In this document: one piece after another, positions 27,001 to 33,000 of the stretch
How the letters are laid out: every line of letters starts with the position of its first letter
Numbering within the stretch: position 1 is the stretch's first letter
NCBI RefSeq assembly: GCF_001677475.2
Contig: NZ_CP012498.1
Origin: Escherichia coli
Lineage (GTDB): Bacteria; Pseudomonadota; Gammaproteobacteria; Enterobacterales; Enterobacteriaceae
DNA length: 64,000 nucleotides
Reading direction: 5' to 3' (one strand)
Made by a program: the position numbers

Positions 27001-30000
27001 GATCATCAATAACGTGAGAGAAAACCGCCAGGTGACCGTCCCGGCTGAACTGCTGGCGTCCCTGATTCAGACCGCCGAACAGGCACTGTGGAAACGTGAA
27101 TGGGCCGCCCGTGATTACGGCCTTGCCGTCCCGGAATGCGTTACCCGCCGTCAGGCGGTGGTTAATCAGGCCCGCATCCTGCTGAAAAACAACACACACG
27201 AAAACGACTGATGTTATCGCCGCCTTCGGGCGGCGATTCAGGGAGACCATTAATCATGAACAAAACGCTGAATGCACTGGTTTGTCGCCACGCCCGTAAC
27301 CTGCTGCTGGCGCAGGGCTGGCCGGAAGAGACGGATATTGAACAACTGAATCCGCACTATCCGGGCTGGATCAGCATTTATGTGCGACTGGATGTATCCC
27401 GGCTGGCGACGTTACTTATCAGCCGCCATGATGGCGTGCTGCCGCCGGTCCTGGCGTCTGCCATGCAAAAACTGACCGGAACCGTGGCGGAACTTGTACT
27501 GTCCGGCAGCCAGTGGCAGGCGCTGCCGGTACTTCCGGCAGACGGAACGCAGGTGTCTTTCCCGTATGCCGGCGAATGGCTGGCAGAAGACGAAATTAGG
27601 GCAGTTCTTGATGCGGTACGCAATGCAGTACGAAGCATCTGTTACCAGGTGGCAGACGATGCGCGGCGTATCCGGGCGGCGCTGACCACCACCGGTCAGA
27701 CGTTGCTGACCCGCCAGACGCGCCGCTTTCGTCTGGTTGTGAAGGAAAGCGATTACCCCTGCTGGCTTGATGAAGATGACGAAAATCTGCCCGTGGTGCT
27801 CGATGCCATTCTGAACCGTGGCGCCCGTTTTTCCTCTGTGGAAATGTACCTGGTCTGTGAGTGTGTGGAGCATATCCTGGCCAGTGGTCTGGTCTGTGAT
27901 GTGCTGCGTATACCGGATGAACCGTCCCGTCGCTGGTTTGACCGGGATATTCTGCGGGAGGTTGTTCTGGAGGCACGGGATGAAATCCGCAGCATGGCGG
28001 ATGCCCTGGCAAAAATCCGGAAATGATGACGCTGGCGGGGAAAAATCTCCGCCTTTTCCTGCCGGTCCCCGGAAAGAGCAAAAGGATGTCGCCGCAGGCT
28101 CCGCTTTACCCGGCCATGCAGGGCATGGCCTTGTGGGATTTCAGTTATGTGGCCTCAGCGTCGTGTGCGGGCTGTGCCGTGCCTCCATCTTAGCCGGGCT
28201 GGCGGGGATGCAAGGGTAAAATGCACGCGGCGGTCACCCGGTCCCTCCTTCCCGTCTGCCGTGATTTTCCGGTCGTTCACCCGCTCAGATTTCGCGGTCT
28301 CACCCTCCAACTCCCGCCAGCCGTGTGCGTCAGGCTGCGGCTTCCCTTGCGCCCCTGCATCCCCGCCTTATCGCCCGGCTTTTATGGAGGCACGGCACCG
28401 CCCGGTGTCGCGGAATATGTGAACAATGGAGGAATACATCATGCAGTATGCGAAACCTGTCACCCTGAATGTTGAAGAGTGCGACCGCCTTTCTTTTCTG
28501 CCTTACCTGTTTGGTAACGATTTTCTGTATGCCGAGGCGTATGTGTACGCTCTGGCACAAAAAATGATGCCGGAATATCAGGGAGGCTTCTGGCATTTCA
28601 TCCGCCTGCCGGACGGTGGCGGTTACATGATGCCGGATGGCGACCGTTTTCATCTGGTCAACGGTGAAAACTGGTTTGACCGCACTGTGAGTGCTGATGC
28701 CGCAGGTATCATTCTGACGTCTCTTGTGATTAACCGCCAGTTGTGGCTGTACCACGACAGCGGGGATGCGGGGCTGACACACCTGTACCGGATGCGTGAT
28801 GCGCAGTTGTGGAGCCACATCGAATTTCACCCCGAATGCAACGCGATTTACGCAGCACTGGACTGATTACCGGACGGGGCGGCAATGCCGCCCCTGTAAA
28901 GGAGGCGAAGAAAAATGAACATCAGTACGGAAACCCGCGAAATTCTGCGTAAATACAAAGCCGTGATTAATGCGCGGCGTCGTGATATGGGGCAGAAACC
29001 GCTCACCACTGCGCAGATTGTTGATGAAATCTGCGATTTTGTGGCGAATCAGCAGGCTGTTTTCCTGGGCGGTCACTACATCTTACAGGCCAGCAGAAAC
29101 AGGTGATACAGGGCAGGCGGTGGAGGCCGCCTGTCAGCCCGCGCGAAAACCCCTGGCAGGCTGGCGCCTGCCGGAAGGGAAGCGGGCCACGCTGGCGCGT
29201 CGCCCGTTACCCTTCCCGTTTGTGATGTGTCTGACTCAGGAGTGTTTCTTTCTTATGTTATGGAACTGTTCCTGATGTTGTTGTTCCTTTATCTGCTGCT
29301 CTGATTCTGACTACTGCAGTGTTGTCCTGTCTGCCTGTCGGGTAGCAGCGGCACATTGCTGCGCCGCCGCCCCCTAAGAACGGAGCGTGCGAGTTTCCCC
29401 GCACTCCGCTCAAGCCTTTATAAGTGCTTTCGGTGAGCACCGGCTTCCCTGCTGTGTAACTGTCGGTGGCCGTTCGGATGTAACAGCTCGAGATTGGTCA
29501 GTTCGTCACTACTGCCCATAACTTTCCTGATCCGGTGATGTATATTCCATCCGGTCTGGTTGGTTATGGGTTGTCCGCACTGCGGGCAGTGTTTCCCCTG
29601 CCTCTTCCAGAGTTGAACTACTGTCTTCATCTTCTTTGATTTGCCTTTCCAGATTAGATCCAGACGACGTTCAAAGTAGATTTCCATTCCGGGGGTGTAT
29701 GGTGTTGCTTCGCCTTTGATTTTTATATGGCGCTTTATCGGTGTTTCCATTGCCCGGAAGAGAGTCAGAATTTTCCCTTCCGGGGTTATGGCTTTAAAGA
29801 TCCAGCGCCTGTCTTCAAAGGAGAAGTATCGTCCGGCGATCCACCGCAATCCTTTCCGGGGATGCCGTCTTACACACCATCGCCATATAGCTCGCCAGAT
29901 TTGGGTGTCGACATAATTAAATGTTTCTTTCGCCACGACGTGTCGGTGATAGGTAGCCCATCCCCGGATCACCGGGTTTAGCTGGCCTATCAGTTTCCAT

Positions 30001-33000
30001 GCCGGGAGCGTCGGATTGCGTTTAATTATTTCTCTGACTTTACAGAGGAAGTTCTTCAGGTTTTTCTTCGACGGTTTAATCAGCATTTTACCGTTGTACT
30101 TCCTGACGTTCTGCCCTAAAAAGTCGAAGCCTTTATCTATATGTGTGATCGCTGTTTTTTCTTCCGACAGTTCCAGTCCTCGTTCGCGCATGAAAGCTGC
30201 AATCAGTGGTCTGACCTCATTTTCCAGCAATTCACGGGAGCTGCCTGAACAGATGAAATCATCAGCATATCTCACATAATTCACCTGGTGCTTTGCACTG
30301 TGATAACCACTTTTCCTGAACGTTTGCATCAGTTCCTTCTCCAGTCCGTCCAGTGCCATGTTGGCGAGAACAGGGGATATGATGCTTCCCTGCGGTGTCC
30401 CGCTGTTCGTATGGTTAAACACGCCTCTTTCCATGTAACCTGCTTTCAACCATTTTTTAAGCAGTCTCCTGTCCATCGGAATATGGGAAAGCAGCCAGTC
30501 ATGGCTGATGTTATCGAAACACCCTTTAATATCGCCCTCCAGTATCCATTTGGGCGATACTTTCTGGCTCATCCGCAGAAAAATGGACTCAATGGCGTCA
30601 TGCGTGCTGCGCATTGGTCTGAAACCATAGCTGTTATGGTCAGCAGTGGTCTCGGATACGGGTTCCAGAGCCAGCAGCCACAGTGCCTGCATGGCCCGGT
30701 CCCTCATTGTGGGTATGCCCAGCGGTCGCGTTTTGCCGTTTGATTTTGGGATATGTATTCGCCGTAGTGGCTGTGGTCTGTAACCACACAGATTCAGGCT
30801 GCATATCCCTTCCCATTTCTCCTTCGGTGTGTTCCATATTTTTCCGTCAATACCAGGTGTCCTTTTACCGGTATTTTCAGTTACACGCCTGACAGCCACG
30901 GCTTTGCCGGAGAATGAGCGGGTGAGGATGCGCTGTAGTTCTCTGACCTGCCGCCATTGTTGCTGTCGGGTTGCCTTTGCAATCCGTAACTGTAGCTTTC
31001 GCACCCGGGCATGACATGCTTTCCAGTTTATGGTGTGCCAGCCTGTCGGGTGGGGTATCGTGGACACACTGATGTGTGTATTCATCTCGCTGATATCCTT
31101 TTGACTGCTTTACAGCTTTTCATGCAATTAAAGACCAGACGGAAGTCTGCCCGCTTTCGCGTCGGGGAACCTGCCCCGTATCCCGGTTATTACAGCCGGG
31201 CATTCGCTTTTTCCGTCCTCCTATGCCCGCACCGCTAACAGTGTTCCTTGCGGTTCACCTGCCTGTGAGGCAGCGATACGGGTTTACCAGGTTCCGCTTA
31301 ACATACAGAGGGTCAGGGCGGGTTCTGTCTCTTCACCGGGGTCTCTGCGCCCATGTGCTCCCTGTGCGCGAGGTAGCAACCGGACCCCGTACCTTTTGGT
31401 TCAGGCCTGTCAGCATCTTTGGCCTGTTGCCGATAACGGTGTTTATCAACAGTTCACATGTGTTAACCCTTCTGACCAGCCTTGCTCTCCTGCCGCATGA
31501 TGCTTGCAGCAAGGTAAAGCCCCTCACGGGGCTTTACCCGGGCTGACGCCCGGCTCTCGTTGTCCCGGGAGCTTCAGACCCCGCCGTTGCCGGCAACGCC
31601 TGTCCCGGTAGGCTACAGCTAATGGGATAGCTGGTTTTATCAATGTAAAACAATACGTTAAACGACTTCCTGTCGCACGCGCCCCTTCGGCTCCCGGCTG
31701 CCTGGCGGCATCCGGTCATCAGGCCCGACTCCGACTGGCAGCTGCTGGCGCACCTGCCAGTCTCCGCCGAACCCGCTGGCGCGGTTTCGGGCTGTCGCTA
31801 CGGTCCGATGCGTGAAAACCCCCGGCTTGCAGCGACCGGAACGGTCGTGCCGCCTCTGTCGCGCCGTGGCCTGCGCTCCTGGCATCCCGGCAAAAGGCCG
31901 CCGGGATGTGAGGGGCAACGCCGTTTCGCGCACGCGCTCTTCGTCGTTGCGGCGGGTGCCTGCCCGTTGTTGTATCCGGTGCCATACACTCGTTTAAGCC
32001 CCTGTCGCCGGGGGCAAAGACAGCCACAACCGTCTCCGCCAGTCCAGGGGTGAAATGCACATCCCACAAAAGTTTTTGCCCAAAAGCAGGCAAAAACTTT
32101 TGCGGTCTGCCCCCGGACAGTCGTTTCCGGCCGTGGCAGTGATGCCCCTTGCGGCGAAGGTTCTCAAACGGGTGATGGTTAATACCGGAGGGAACAAAAG
32201 ACAGGTCCCCGCAAAACGTCAAAACCGCGGCTCCCGAAACTCAACAGCTACCGTGTTTAGTCAAGAAAATTATGTGATGTTTGAACATTCCATCTTCAGG
32301 AGAAATTTTCTCTGAGTTTTTATAAAAGAGCAGATGCTCAGTTAGATACCATGAAAGAAGGTAAAAGATACAAACATGTTGCTTCAGCATTGCTCCGGTG
32401 TTATTGCTTACCATGTTGTTTTATAATGATTTTATTGATTGTATTCAGCATCGAATGGTAACTGCGTTTTCAGCACACCATAGCACCAGTGCACAAGTTT
32501 TCGCATTAATGCTCCAATAGCACACATCTTTGACTTTCCCCTCTGGCATAACTTCGTATACATCTGTTTCATTACAGGGTTGAACCTCAGCCCACATAAA
32601 GCTGCAAGATAAAGTTTTGTTCTTATCTCTGGTGGTCCAATTTTAGATAATTTAGGTTTTCCCTTTACAGATGTGCCAGATCTCCTTTCTACCGGAACTA
32701 CACCAAGGAATGCTGCTGCCTGCTCTGCTGATTCGAATGAATGGCTTTTGAGTATCGCCAGCATATTTAATCCCAGCAGATAACCAACAGATTTTATTGA
32801 TGTTAACAGTCTGAAATCCTGGTTTAGTTCCGGGTGAGTTTCAATATGTTCCTGGATCAGGACATCAAGATGTTCGATCTCATTGTTCAGCTCCTGAAGC
32901 ATGTGTTCAATTGATGCCCTGACGGCATCAGGGCTGTCTGTAAAAACAGATTTTTCAAGTCTGTTTTTTTCTCTGGTGCTATCTGCAACAAGAGCGTCTC

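What the first reader, a model, noticed from the sequence alone, without database searches (positions are those of the whole stretch)
29337..31678. Second, intact group II intron with a different encoded protein but nearly identical 3' end
Copy 2 (2342 bp) encodes a complete 555-aa RT/maturase/HNH protein. Its domain V/VI region and 3' terminus closely match copy 1, while the protein sequences are only moderately similar, indicating two related intron lineages on one plasmid. Copy 2 is inserted in a GC-rich intergenic region of the leading region rather than in a gene.
Basis: seen in the sequence. Interest (0 to 1): 0.4.

Follow-up and report, generated by a model that had tools for sequence, protein, structure and literature searches.

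The report
Known plasmid group II intron, copy two
This is a real, full-length mobile group II intron, but it is an ordinary one: the same element is already annotated in over a thousand F-like and I-like plasmids, always at the same spot beside a single-strand promoter module, and this copy carries a few changes that may weaken it.

Summary
Window 29337-31678 (minus strand) is a complete 2342-nt group II intron. It has GUGCGAC...GAC ends, Rfam-scored domain I and V/VI, a bulged branch A, and a 555-aa RT/maturase/HNH ORF.

It is a different lineage from copy 1 (21114-25932, broken by ISEc10). The proteins are 53% identical, and DNA identity is 58% overall against 84% in DV/DVI. The shared 3' end is a clade-wide feature, not something special to these two copies.

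It is not new. It is the 2,343-bp "pHN7A8-type" intron, present in 1068 PLSDB plasmids and 313 of 5426 complete E. coli genomes. It belongs to the IIB1/CL group with EcI5 and T.el4h.

I mapped its exon-binding sites by covariation across seven lineages. EBS1 is GCGCAC and EBS2 is UCGGC. The homing site is GCCGAAG-GTGCGC|C, at the outer edge of the Frpo/ssi single-strand-promoter module. It lies about 250 nt behind the promoter hairpin, on the transferred strand, and in non-coding GC-rich DNA.

In this window, two site positions next to the splice junctions are mutated (-5 and +1). The protein also has window-specific substitutions at three conserved residues (G234S, G525S, C539G). "Intact" therefore means full-length, not proven active.

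Interest is low.

The parts
29337..31678 (-). Whole group II intron, copy 2 (2342 nt)
   Evidence: GTGCGAC...CCCGAC ends. Two Rfam hits. 99.2% identical to annotated ltrA introns in 1068 PLSDB plasmids. Uninterrupted empty sites exist in other plasmids.
31485..31634 (-). Domain I 5' part (Rfam group-II-D1D4-7)
   Evidence: 121.7 bits against a gathering score of 34, full model 1-151.
31429..31434 (-). EBS2 (A)UCGGC, intron nt 245-250
   Evidence: It sits in the loop next to a covarying helix (ACACCG/CGGUG). It pairs with 5'-exon positions -9..-13 (GCCGA). The homologous segment pairs with each lineage's own exon in seven lineages.
31364..31369 (-). EBS1 GCGCAC, intron nt 310-315, in hairpin loop CUC[GCGCACAGG]GAG
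   Evidence: 6/6 pairs with the canonical IncF exon GTGCGC and 5/6 with the window exon GGGCGC. EBS1 plus EBS2 pairing with own exon is 9-11 of 12 across lineages, against a mean of 4.9 with foreign exons.
29418..31085 (-). Intron-encoded protein ORF, 555 aa (RT, maturase X, HNH endonuclease), in domain IV
   Evidence: Pfam RVT_N, RVT_1, GIIM, HNH. TIGR04416 at 383 bits. Best solved relative is the T.el4h IIB RT, 6ME0, E 1e-174. Window-specific S234, S525 and G539 fall at conserved G, G and C positions.
29378..29411 (-). Domain V
   Evidence: Rfam RF00029. The consensus fold keeps all pairs, and 11 of 29 DV/DVI pairs show compensatory changes across seven lineages.
29340..29374 (-). Domain VI with bulged branch-point A at window 29343
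   Evidence: Folds. The A is unpaired, 7 nt from the 3' end.
31679..31691 (-). 5'-exon recognition sequence: IBS1 (31679-31684, GGGCGC) and IBS2 (31687-31691, GCCGA)
   Evidence: The canonical empty site reads GCCGAAGGTGCGC|CGGCAGAC. The window has G instead of T at -5.
29336..29336 (-). 3'-exon position +1 (A here; C in IncF and IncI sites)
   Evidence: EBS3 was not located.
31929..32240 (-). Context: Frpo1-like single-strand promoter hairpin on the transferred strand
   Evidence: Window 31816-32247 is 93% identical to the region upstream of ygeA in F and 85% identical to the region upstream of ssb. The single-stranded DNA fold gives a roughly 312-nt hairpin, z -8.75. Identified as Frpo from the description in PMC9849209.
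21114..25932 (-). Context: copy 1 intron, interrupted by ISEc10 at 21584-23993
35777..35791 (-). Context: F-type oriT nic sequence GGGGTGT|GGTGCTTT, which identifies the minus strand as the transferred strand
   Evidence: Exact match. The nic sequence itself is from my own knowledge of F oriT.

Best explanation
This is a resident copy of an already described mobile group II intron of the IIB1 / chloroplast-like (CL) class. It is the 2,342-2,343-nt element known from pHN7A8-type F plasmids and from IncI plasmids, sitting in its natural homing site.

Inferred mechanism, from the family:
1. The intron is transcribed on the minus strand.
2. The 555-aa protein helps it splice as a lariat.
3. The RNA-protein particle recognises the DNA site through EBS2/IBS2 (UCGGC with GCCGA, positions -13..-9) and EBS1/IBS1 (GCGCAC with GTGCGC, positions -6..-1), plus protein contacts.
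4. The RNA reverse-splices into that strand.
5. The HNH domain nicks the other strand, and the RT copies the intron.

The site lies at the outer edge of the Frpo/ssi single-strand-promoter module. It is about 250 nt behind the promoter hairpin, and promoter transcription runs away from it. The insertion therefore does not interrupt the leading-region operon and is tolerated by the plasmid.

The intron's sense strand is the transferred strand, so it is antisense to all leading genes and cannot be spliced out of their transcripts.

This particular copy is full-length with an unchanged ribozyme. However, it has mismatches at exon positions -5 and +1 and substitutions at three conserved protein residues. 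I judge it more likely than not to be weakened in splicing or mobility.
For: Shown:
- Boundaries, Rfam domains, ORF domains and DV/DVI structure.
- 99.2% identity to ltrA-annotated introns in 1068 plasmids: Escherichia 527, Klebsiella 491, Salmonella 18. It is also in 313 of 5426 complete E. coli genomes.
- Empty sites are common. At least 2061 plasmids carry the IncF-type site and 1585 the IncI-type site, including ColIb-P9 and R64 at 100% identity.
- EBS/IBS assignment by covariation over seven lineages.
- The protein is 55% identical to the EcI5 protein, described as CL1/IIB1 in PMC8643678. It matches the T.el4h RT at E 1e-174, against 1e-45 for LtrA.
- Position relative to Frpo and nic.

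Literature:
- A 2,343-bp group II intron in the pHN7A8 backbone is used as a lineage marker, and intron-bearing plasmids remain conjugative (PMC8765060).
- New junctions of such an intron arose twice at the same leading-region position in an evolution experiment (PMC10104558).

Signs of weakening in this copy:
- Exon -5 is T->G and +1 is C->A relative to empty sites.
- G234S lies in the invariant TPQGG block. G525S and C539G lie in the conserved GG and HPxCH motifs of the HNH domain.
Against: - No splicing or mobility data exist for this copy.
- The window-specific ORF changes are 8 synonymous against 5 non-synonymous codons. That is not what free decay would give.
- The only ribozyme change (nt 17, C->U) keeps a G-U pair.
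- No sigma-70 consensus promoter was found upstream on the intron strand, so how the intron is transcribed is unknown.
- EBS3 was not identified.
- The abundant IncI site pairs with my EBS1 only if the register shifts by one nucleotide, so the recognition model is incomplete.
- I found no formal name for the intron in the held literature.
Confidence: 0.88

Rival explanations
1. The copy is fully active. The window-specific exon and protein changes are neutral polymorphisms, and the intron can still splice and home.
For: The ORF is complete, YADD is present and the ribozyme is essentially unchanged. The ratio of 8 synonymous to 5 non-synonymous changes suggests continued constraint. EBS1 still forms 5/6 pairs and EBS2 5/6. 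EcI5 in its natural pO157 site also has an imperfect EBS1 pairing.
Against: Three of the five window-specific amino-acid changes hit positions invariant in all relatives compared. One is a Cys of the HNH motif and one a Gly of RT block TPQGG. Both exon positions next to the splice junctions that differ from the canonical site are ones used for recognition.
Confidence: 0.4
2. The lineage is specialised for conjugation-coupled homing. It reverse-splices into the single-stranded transferred strand next to the Frpo/ssi module, and uses complementary-strand synthesis in the recipient to prime cDNA. This would explain its strand, its site and its spread across IncF and IncI plasmids.
For: Both window introns are sense on the transferred strand. 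The site sits just 3' of a cluster of hairpins at the edge of the ssi unit. The intron occurs in many genera and in two plasmid families. It was acquired de novo twice in an evolution experiment. Some close relatives (L008, L011) lack the endonuclease domain and must use host-made primers.
Against: This intron has an HNH domain, so it does not need single-stranded DNA. Related introns in the same region are on the other strand: EcI5 in pO157, and the intron inside ssb in L014. There is therefore no clear strand bias among independent sites. The site is outside the Frpo hairpin itself. No experiment links homing to transfer.
Confidence: 0.12
3. The intron reached this plasmid not by retrohoming but by inheritance or homologous recombination of the surrounding leading-region DNA from another intron-bearing plasmid.
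For: The backbone here is itself recombinant, with the ssb-psiB-hok segment missing and the Frpo core Frpo1-like. The window's exon alleles at -5 and +1 match no empty site found; the best empty site is 97.5% identical. The intron is about 1% diverged from every other copy, which suggests long residence rather than recent arrival.
Against: This concerns history only and does not change what the element is. The junctions are precise and in the standard register. Either route gives the same structure.
Confidence: 0.5
4. It is merely a duplicate of copy 1 or of EcI5, or a degenerate intron fragment.
For: Identical 5' GTGCGAC and the same last 13 nt as copy 1.
Against: DNA identity is 58% and protein identity 53% to copy 1. 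Identity to EcI5 is about 67% DNA and 55% protein. The EBS1 and EBS2 sequences and the target sites are different. All six domains' hallmarks are present.
Confidence: 0.01

Closest known systems
The 2,343-bp group II intron of pHN7A8-type FII-33 plasmids (annotated ltrA, e.g. WP_001762494.1 / WP_012372796.1)
   Same: Same element. It is 99.2% identical over its full length, in the same leading-region site next to the 63-aa gene, and has the same 555-aa protein length.
   Different: The window copy is 2342 nt because it lacks the extra C at nt 337 seen in IncF-site copies. It has 15 window-specific substitutions, five of them amino-acid changes. Its exons differ at -5 and +1.
EcI5 (E. coli pO157; subgroup IIB1, CL1 reverse transcriptase; a highly active retrohoming intron used as a targetron)
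   Same: Same structural class. Domains I-III align throughout at about 67-71% identity. The protein is 55% identical with the same domain order including HNH. EBS1, EBS2 and A at -14 are in the same places. EcI5 also lives in an F-plasmid leading region.
   Different: It is a different lineage with different EBS1/EBS2 and a different target. In pO157, EcI5 is on the same strand as the leading genes, whereas copy 2 is antisense to them.
Copy 1 in this window (2403-nt intron found intact in e.g. pRM14516 and UMNK88 plasmids)
   Same: Same clade, same strand, same plasmid region, same 5' and 3' termini, same protein architecture.
   Different: 53% protein identity. EBS1 is UUUGAC and its target is GTCAGA/T, inside the DNA methylase gene. 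In this window it is broken by ISEc10.
T.el4h (Thermosynechococcus IIB intron, RNP structure 6ME0)
   Same: The closest protein with a solved structure, E 1e-174 over residues 12-553. IIB/CL architecture with an En domain.
   Different: It is a cyanobacterial chromosomal intron, known only as a sequence relative here. No structure comparison was run.

Membership tests
Group II intron (ribozyme) | 5' GUGYG and 3' AY termini | tested here: met
   GTGCG at 31678-31674 and ...GAC at 29339-29337.
Group II intron (ribozyme) | Domain V hairpin with AGC triad and 2-nt bulge; domain VI with bulged branch A | tested here: met
   RF00029 at 60.1 bits against a gathering score of 40. Folds keep all pairs, and 11 of 29 pairs covary across seven lineages. 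The bulged A is at window 29343.
Group II intron (ribozyme) | Conserved domain I architecture | tested here: met
   RF02012 at 121.7 bits over the full model. Domains I-III align with EcI5 and seven other lineages.
Group II intron (ribozyme) | Self-splicing / lariat formation | not testable with these tools
   Needs RT-PCR or in vitro splicing.
Mobile group II intron (retroelement) | ORF in domain IV with RT, maturase (X) and, optionally, D/En domains | tested here: met
   RVT_N, RVT_1, GIIM and HNH. TIGR04416 at 383 bits against a cut-off of 300. YADD is present.
Mobile group II intron (retroelement) | Precise insertion with matching uninterrupted ('empty') sites elsewhere | tested here: met
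   Empty IncF-type sites in L012 and L013, and empty IncI-type sites in ColIb-P9 and R64.
Mobile group II intron (retroelement) | Retrohoming activity | not testable with these tools
   Indirect only: two new junctions in an evolution experiment (PMC10104558).
Subgroup IIB1 / CL class | EBS1-IBS1 and EBS2-IBS2 pairings with the 5' exon, with EBS2 in a multibranch internal loop | tested here: met
   EBS1 pairs 5/6 here and 6/6 at the canonical site. EBS2 pairs 5/6. EBS2 adjoins a covarying helix.
Subgroup IIB1 / CL class | EBS3-IBS3 pair for 3'-exon position +1 | tested here: inconclusive
   No column covaries with +1. Position +1 is A here and C at the other sites.
Subgroup IIB1 / CL class | Protein groups with CL-class reverse transcriptases | tested here: met
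   55% identity to the EcI5 protein, called CL1 in PMC8643678. T.el4h RT at E 1e-174 against LtrA at 1e-45 and IIC RTs at 1e-35 to 1e-40. No formal phylogeny was built.
EcI5 (same intron) | Near-identical sequence and same target site | tested here: not met
   About 67% DNA and 55% protein identity, with different EBS sequences and a different site.

The most novel reading that the evidence does not exclude
A clade of IIB1/CL introns has specialised in the leading regions of conjugative plasmids. This member homes to the outer edge of the Frpo/ssi single-strand-promoter module on the transferred strand. It can use two EBS1 registers, one for the IncF site and one for the IncI site, possibly set by a single C in the EBS2 loop. 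It may exploit the single-stranded entry of the plasmid to spread during conjugation.
Probability: 0.12. Interest if true: 0.45.

Novelty: already known. Interest (0 to 1): 0.17.

Why it matters
It matters little for discovery. The element is annotated in more than a thousand plasmids and has been used as a lineage marker for FII-33 resistance plasmids.

The useful by-products are practical:
- a defined recognition sequence (EBS1, EBS2 and the IncF and IncI sites) for a very common plasmid intron;
- the observation that it parks behind, not inside, the single-strand promoter, which explains why intron-bearing plasmids still transfer;
- a small unexplained point about how one intron uses two sites whose EBS1 pairing is offset by one nucleotide.

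If the leading region proves to be a preferred niche for this clade, that would link retroelement spread to conjugation. My evidence for that link is weak.

Tried and rejected
- **First EBS guesses were wrong.** By eye I placed EBS2 at the conserved CACCGGUG and EBS1 at the later loop (UAUGUUAAG in copy 2). I also considered CGCCC (nt ~372) and the conserved CUGACAGG. CACCGGUG turned out to be one strand of a covarying helix. The other candidates fail in most lineages.
- **EBS3 and delta' were not found.** Searching the alignment for a column covarying with position +1, or with the base before EBS1, gave nothing convincing.
- **The intron is not inside the Frpo hairpin.** I tested this idea. 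The hairpin is at 31929-32240 and the site is about 250 nt away. The first fold, of 600 nt of joined exons, was uninformative.
- **No promoter was found.** A sigma-70 consensus scan gave no hit on the intron strand between 28800 and 33700.
- **No real gene is interrupted.** The ORFs across the joined exons are Arg-rich and low in complexity, and F has a different sequence there.
- **The original EcI5 paper was not available.** It is not held, and no formal database name for this intron was found.
- **Two Klebsiella papers were off-target.** They mention ltrA but concern other introns or recombination events.
- **Large searches were not run.** I did not use the protein-database searches, metagenome scans or structure prediction, because the plasmid and E. 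coli collections already answered the question.

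
Full report
**What is there.** The window is an F-like conjugative plasmid. Rfam finds the traJ 5' UTR and FinP at 36.6 kb and the traG antisense RNA at 57.1 kb. An exact F-type nic sequence, GGGGTGT|GGTGCTTT, lies on the minus strand at 35777-35791 (the nic sequence is from my own knowledge of F oriT). The minus strand is therefore the transferred strand, and the DNA below 35.8 kb is the leading region.

At 29337-31678 on the minus strand there is a complete group II intron of 2342 nt.
- It starts with GTGCGAC and ends with CTACCCGAC.
- Rfam scores its domain I at 121.7 bits and its domain V/VI at 60.1 bits, both far above the curated thresholds.
- Domain V and domain VI fold as expected, with an unpaired A seven nucleotides from the 3' end (window 29343). 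Across seven lineages, 11 of the 29 pairs show compensatory changes.
- The ORF from 31085 to 29418 encodes 555 aa with RVT_N, RVT_1, GIIM and HNH domains. It passes the NCBIfam group II RT/maturase model.

**Relation to copy 1.** Copy 1 occupies 21114-25932 on the same strand. It is split by an ISEc10 (IS21 family) element at 21584-23993 with a 6-bp target duplication. With the IS removed it is 2403 nt and encodes 566 aa, identical to intact copies in other plasmids.

The two proteins are 53% identical. DNA identity is 61% in the 5' ribozyme, 55.5% in the ORF, 84.4% in DV/DVI and 58% overall.

The conserved 3' end is not special to this pair. All nine lineages I collected, including ones from Rhizobium and an IncP-like plasmid, end in CTGCTACCCGA[CT].

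**Identity and class.** The intron is 99.2% identical over its full length to introns annotated 'ltrA' in 1068 PLSDB plasmids: Escherichia 527, Klebsiella 491, Salmonella 18, and others. The occupied site is present in 313 of 5426 complete E. coli genomes.

A paper on FII-33 plasmids describes 'a 2,343-bp group II intron' in the pHN7A8 backbone. It uses the intron's presence to define a sublineage and reports that intron-bearing plasmids still conjugate (PMC8765060). In an evolution experiment, such an intron produced new junctions twice at the same leading-region position of an IncI plasmid (PMC10104558).

Three results place it in the IIB1/CL group:
- The protein is 55% identical to that of EcI5 from pO157. 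The literature assigns EcI5 to subgroup IIB1 with a CL1 reverse transcriptase (PMC8643678).
- Its best solved relative is the T.el4h IIB reverse transcriptase, E 1e-174, against 1e-45 for LtrA.
- Domains I-III align with EcI5 throughout.

So this is a known intron of the IIB1/CL group. I found no formal name for it.

**Target recognition.** I collected the 5' ribozyme and flanking exons of nine further introns, which together with the two window copies represent seven independent lineages.

A hairpin loop that differs between lineages is complementary in each case to the last six exon nucleotides. In copy 2 it reads CUC[GCGCACAGG]GAG (intron nt 310-315, window 31364-31369). A second variable segment sits next to a covarying helix. 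In copy 2 it reads (A)UCGGC (nt 245-250, window 31429-31434), and it is complementary to exon positions -9 to -13.

Summed over both sites, each lineage forms 9-11 of 12 pairs with its own exon. The mean with other lineages' exons is 4.9. These segments are EBS1 and EBS2.

The canonical site, read from uninterrupted plasmids, is ...CCGGGAGCCGAAG GTGCGC|CGGCAGAC (L012 and L013). It gives 6/6 pairs for EBS1 and 5/6 for EBS2, with A at -14 as in EcI5.

In the window the exon reads GGGCGC|AGGCAG. Position -5 is G instead of T, which lowers EBS1 to 5/6. Position +1 is A instead of C. I could not locate EBS3 by covariation.

**Where the site lies.** Window 31816-32247 is 93% identical to the region just upstream of ygeA in plasmid F and 85% identical to the region upstream of ssb. 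Couturier et al. name these regions Frpo1 and Frpo2, the single-strand promoters of the leading region (PMC9849209).

Folded as single-stranded DNA, the transferred strand forms a hairpin of about 312 nt at 31929-32240, z-score -8.75. The intron's 5' end at 31678 is about 250 nt beyond the base of this hairpin. It lies on the side away from ygeA, so transcription from the promoter runs away from the intron.

The 5' exon up to about position -7 belongs to a unit repeated two to five times per plasmid. The IBS1 half is unique to one copy of that unit.

The DNA around the site is 64% GC and carries no convincing gene, so 'GC-rich intergenic' is correct. Roughly 980 plasmids have the site occupied. 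At least 2061 (IncF-type) and 1585 (IncI-type) have it empty.

**State of this copy.** The ribozyme differs from the common allele at one position (nt 17, C to U), which keeps a G-U pair. The ORF has 14 window-specific substitutions, 8 synonymous and the rest falling in 5 codons.

Three of the five amino-acid changes hit residues that are invariant in every relative compared:
- G234S, in the TPQGG block of the RT domain.
- G525S, in the conserved GG of the HNH domain.
- C539G, in the HPxCH motif of the HNH domain.

Together with the exon changes at -5 and +1, this makes me think the copy is weakened. The synonymous excess argues against free decay, however, and nothing here measures activity.

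**How it most likely works.** By inference from the family, the intron is transcribed on the minus strand and the protein assists lariat splicing. The particle then pairs EBS2 and EBS1 with the site, reverse-splices into the strand that carries the IBS sequences, nicks the other strand with the HNH domain, and reverse-transcribes.

Only the anatomy and the pairings are shown here. Transcription is unexplained, since no consensus promoter was found on that strand. Because the intron is antisense to all leading genes, it cannot be removed from their transcripts. Its position behind the promoter is what makes it harmless.

**The more novel reading.** Both window introns are sense on the transferred strand, and an En-less relative sits next to ardC in an IncP-like plasmid. 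This invites the idea that the clade invades the single-stranded transferred DNA.

Two observations weaken that idea. EcI5 in pO157 and a further intron inside ssb (L014) lie on the other strand. This intron also has its own endonuclease. I give the reading about 0.12.

**Unexplained.** The IncI site is ...GCCGAAG TGGGCG|CAATAAAAG. Its empty form is 100% identical in ColIb-P9 and R64. It lies at the same distance from IBS2 as the IncF site, yet it pairs with EBS1 at only 1/6 positions in the normal register. It pairs at 6/7 positions if EBS1 is read one nucleotide further 5'.

IncF-site copies carry an extra C at nt 337, on the strand opposite EBS2 in the multibranch loop. The IncI copy and the window copy lack it. 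Whether this C sets the register is untested.

Noticed in passing
window 32248-33621: An IS110-family element (transposase ORF 33493->32432, NF033542 at 213 bits) is inserted about 40 bp upstream of ygeA. It separates the Frpo1-like single-strand promoter from the ygeA/ygeB genes it normally drives. In F, loss of Frpo1 or ygeA lowers conjugation (PMC9849209).
   Followed up: partly
window 28915-33949: The ssb, yfjA, yfjB, psiB and hok genes of the F leading region are absent from the whole window (tblastn). The 63-aa gene normally upstream of Frpo2 is joined to a Frpo1-like core. This matches the deletion expected from Frpo2/Frpo1 recombination. The same backbone, without the intron and the IS, occurs in a K. 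pneumoniae plasmid (L012).
   Followed up: partly
window 21114-26545: Copy 1 is itself broken by ISEc10 (21584-23993, 6-bp duplication). It also truncates the leading-region DNA methylase in antisense orientation: ORF 25892-26545 matches its profile only from position 25. The copy-1 lineage targets this gene in several plasmids (L009, L010).
   Followed up: partly
L001 5982-6000 (IncI pHV292); empty site in NC_002122 and NC_005014: The same intron occupies a second precise site in IncI plasmids. There the last six exon bases pair with EBS1 only if the register is shifted by one nucleotide. A single extra C at intron nt 337 distinguishes IncF-site copies from the IncI copy and the window copy.
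   Followed up: partly
L014 989-3581 (E. coli p1_21437): A further, different group II intron (633-aa protein) lies inside the plasmid ssb gene, in the sense orientation. It is a few hundred bases from a copy of the intron studied here. The leading region seems to collect several intron lineages.
   Followed up: no
L008 2952-5146 (pYKBL021) and L011 2765-4940 (Rhizobium pRLN3): These are relatives of the same clade that lack the HNH endonuclease domain. One sits next to ardC in an IncP-like conjugative plasmid, on the opposite strand to ardC.
   Followed up: no
L003 35700-35715 (EcI5 in pO157): EcI5 has a lineage-specific insertion near its 5' end that reads GGAGTTCGATTCC. This resembles a tRNA T-arm, and part of it is complementary to EcI5's own IBS1. 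It is probably coincidence.
   Followed up: no
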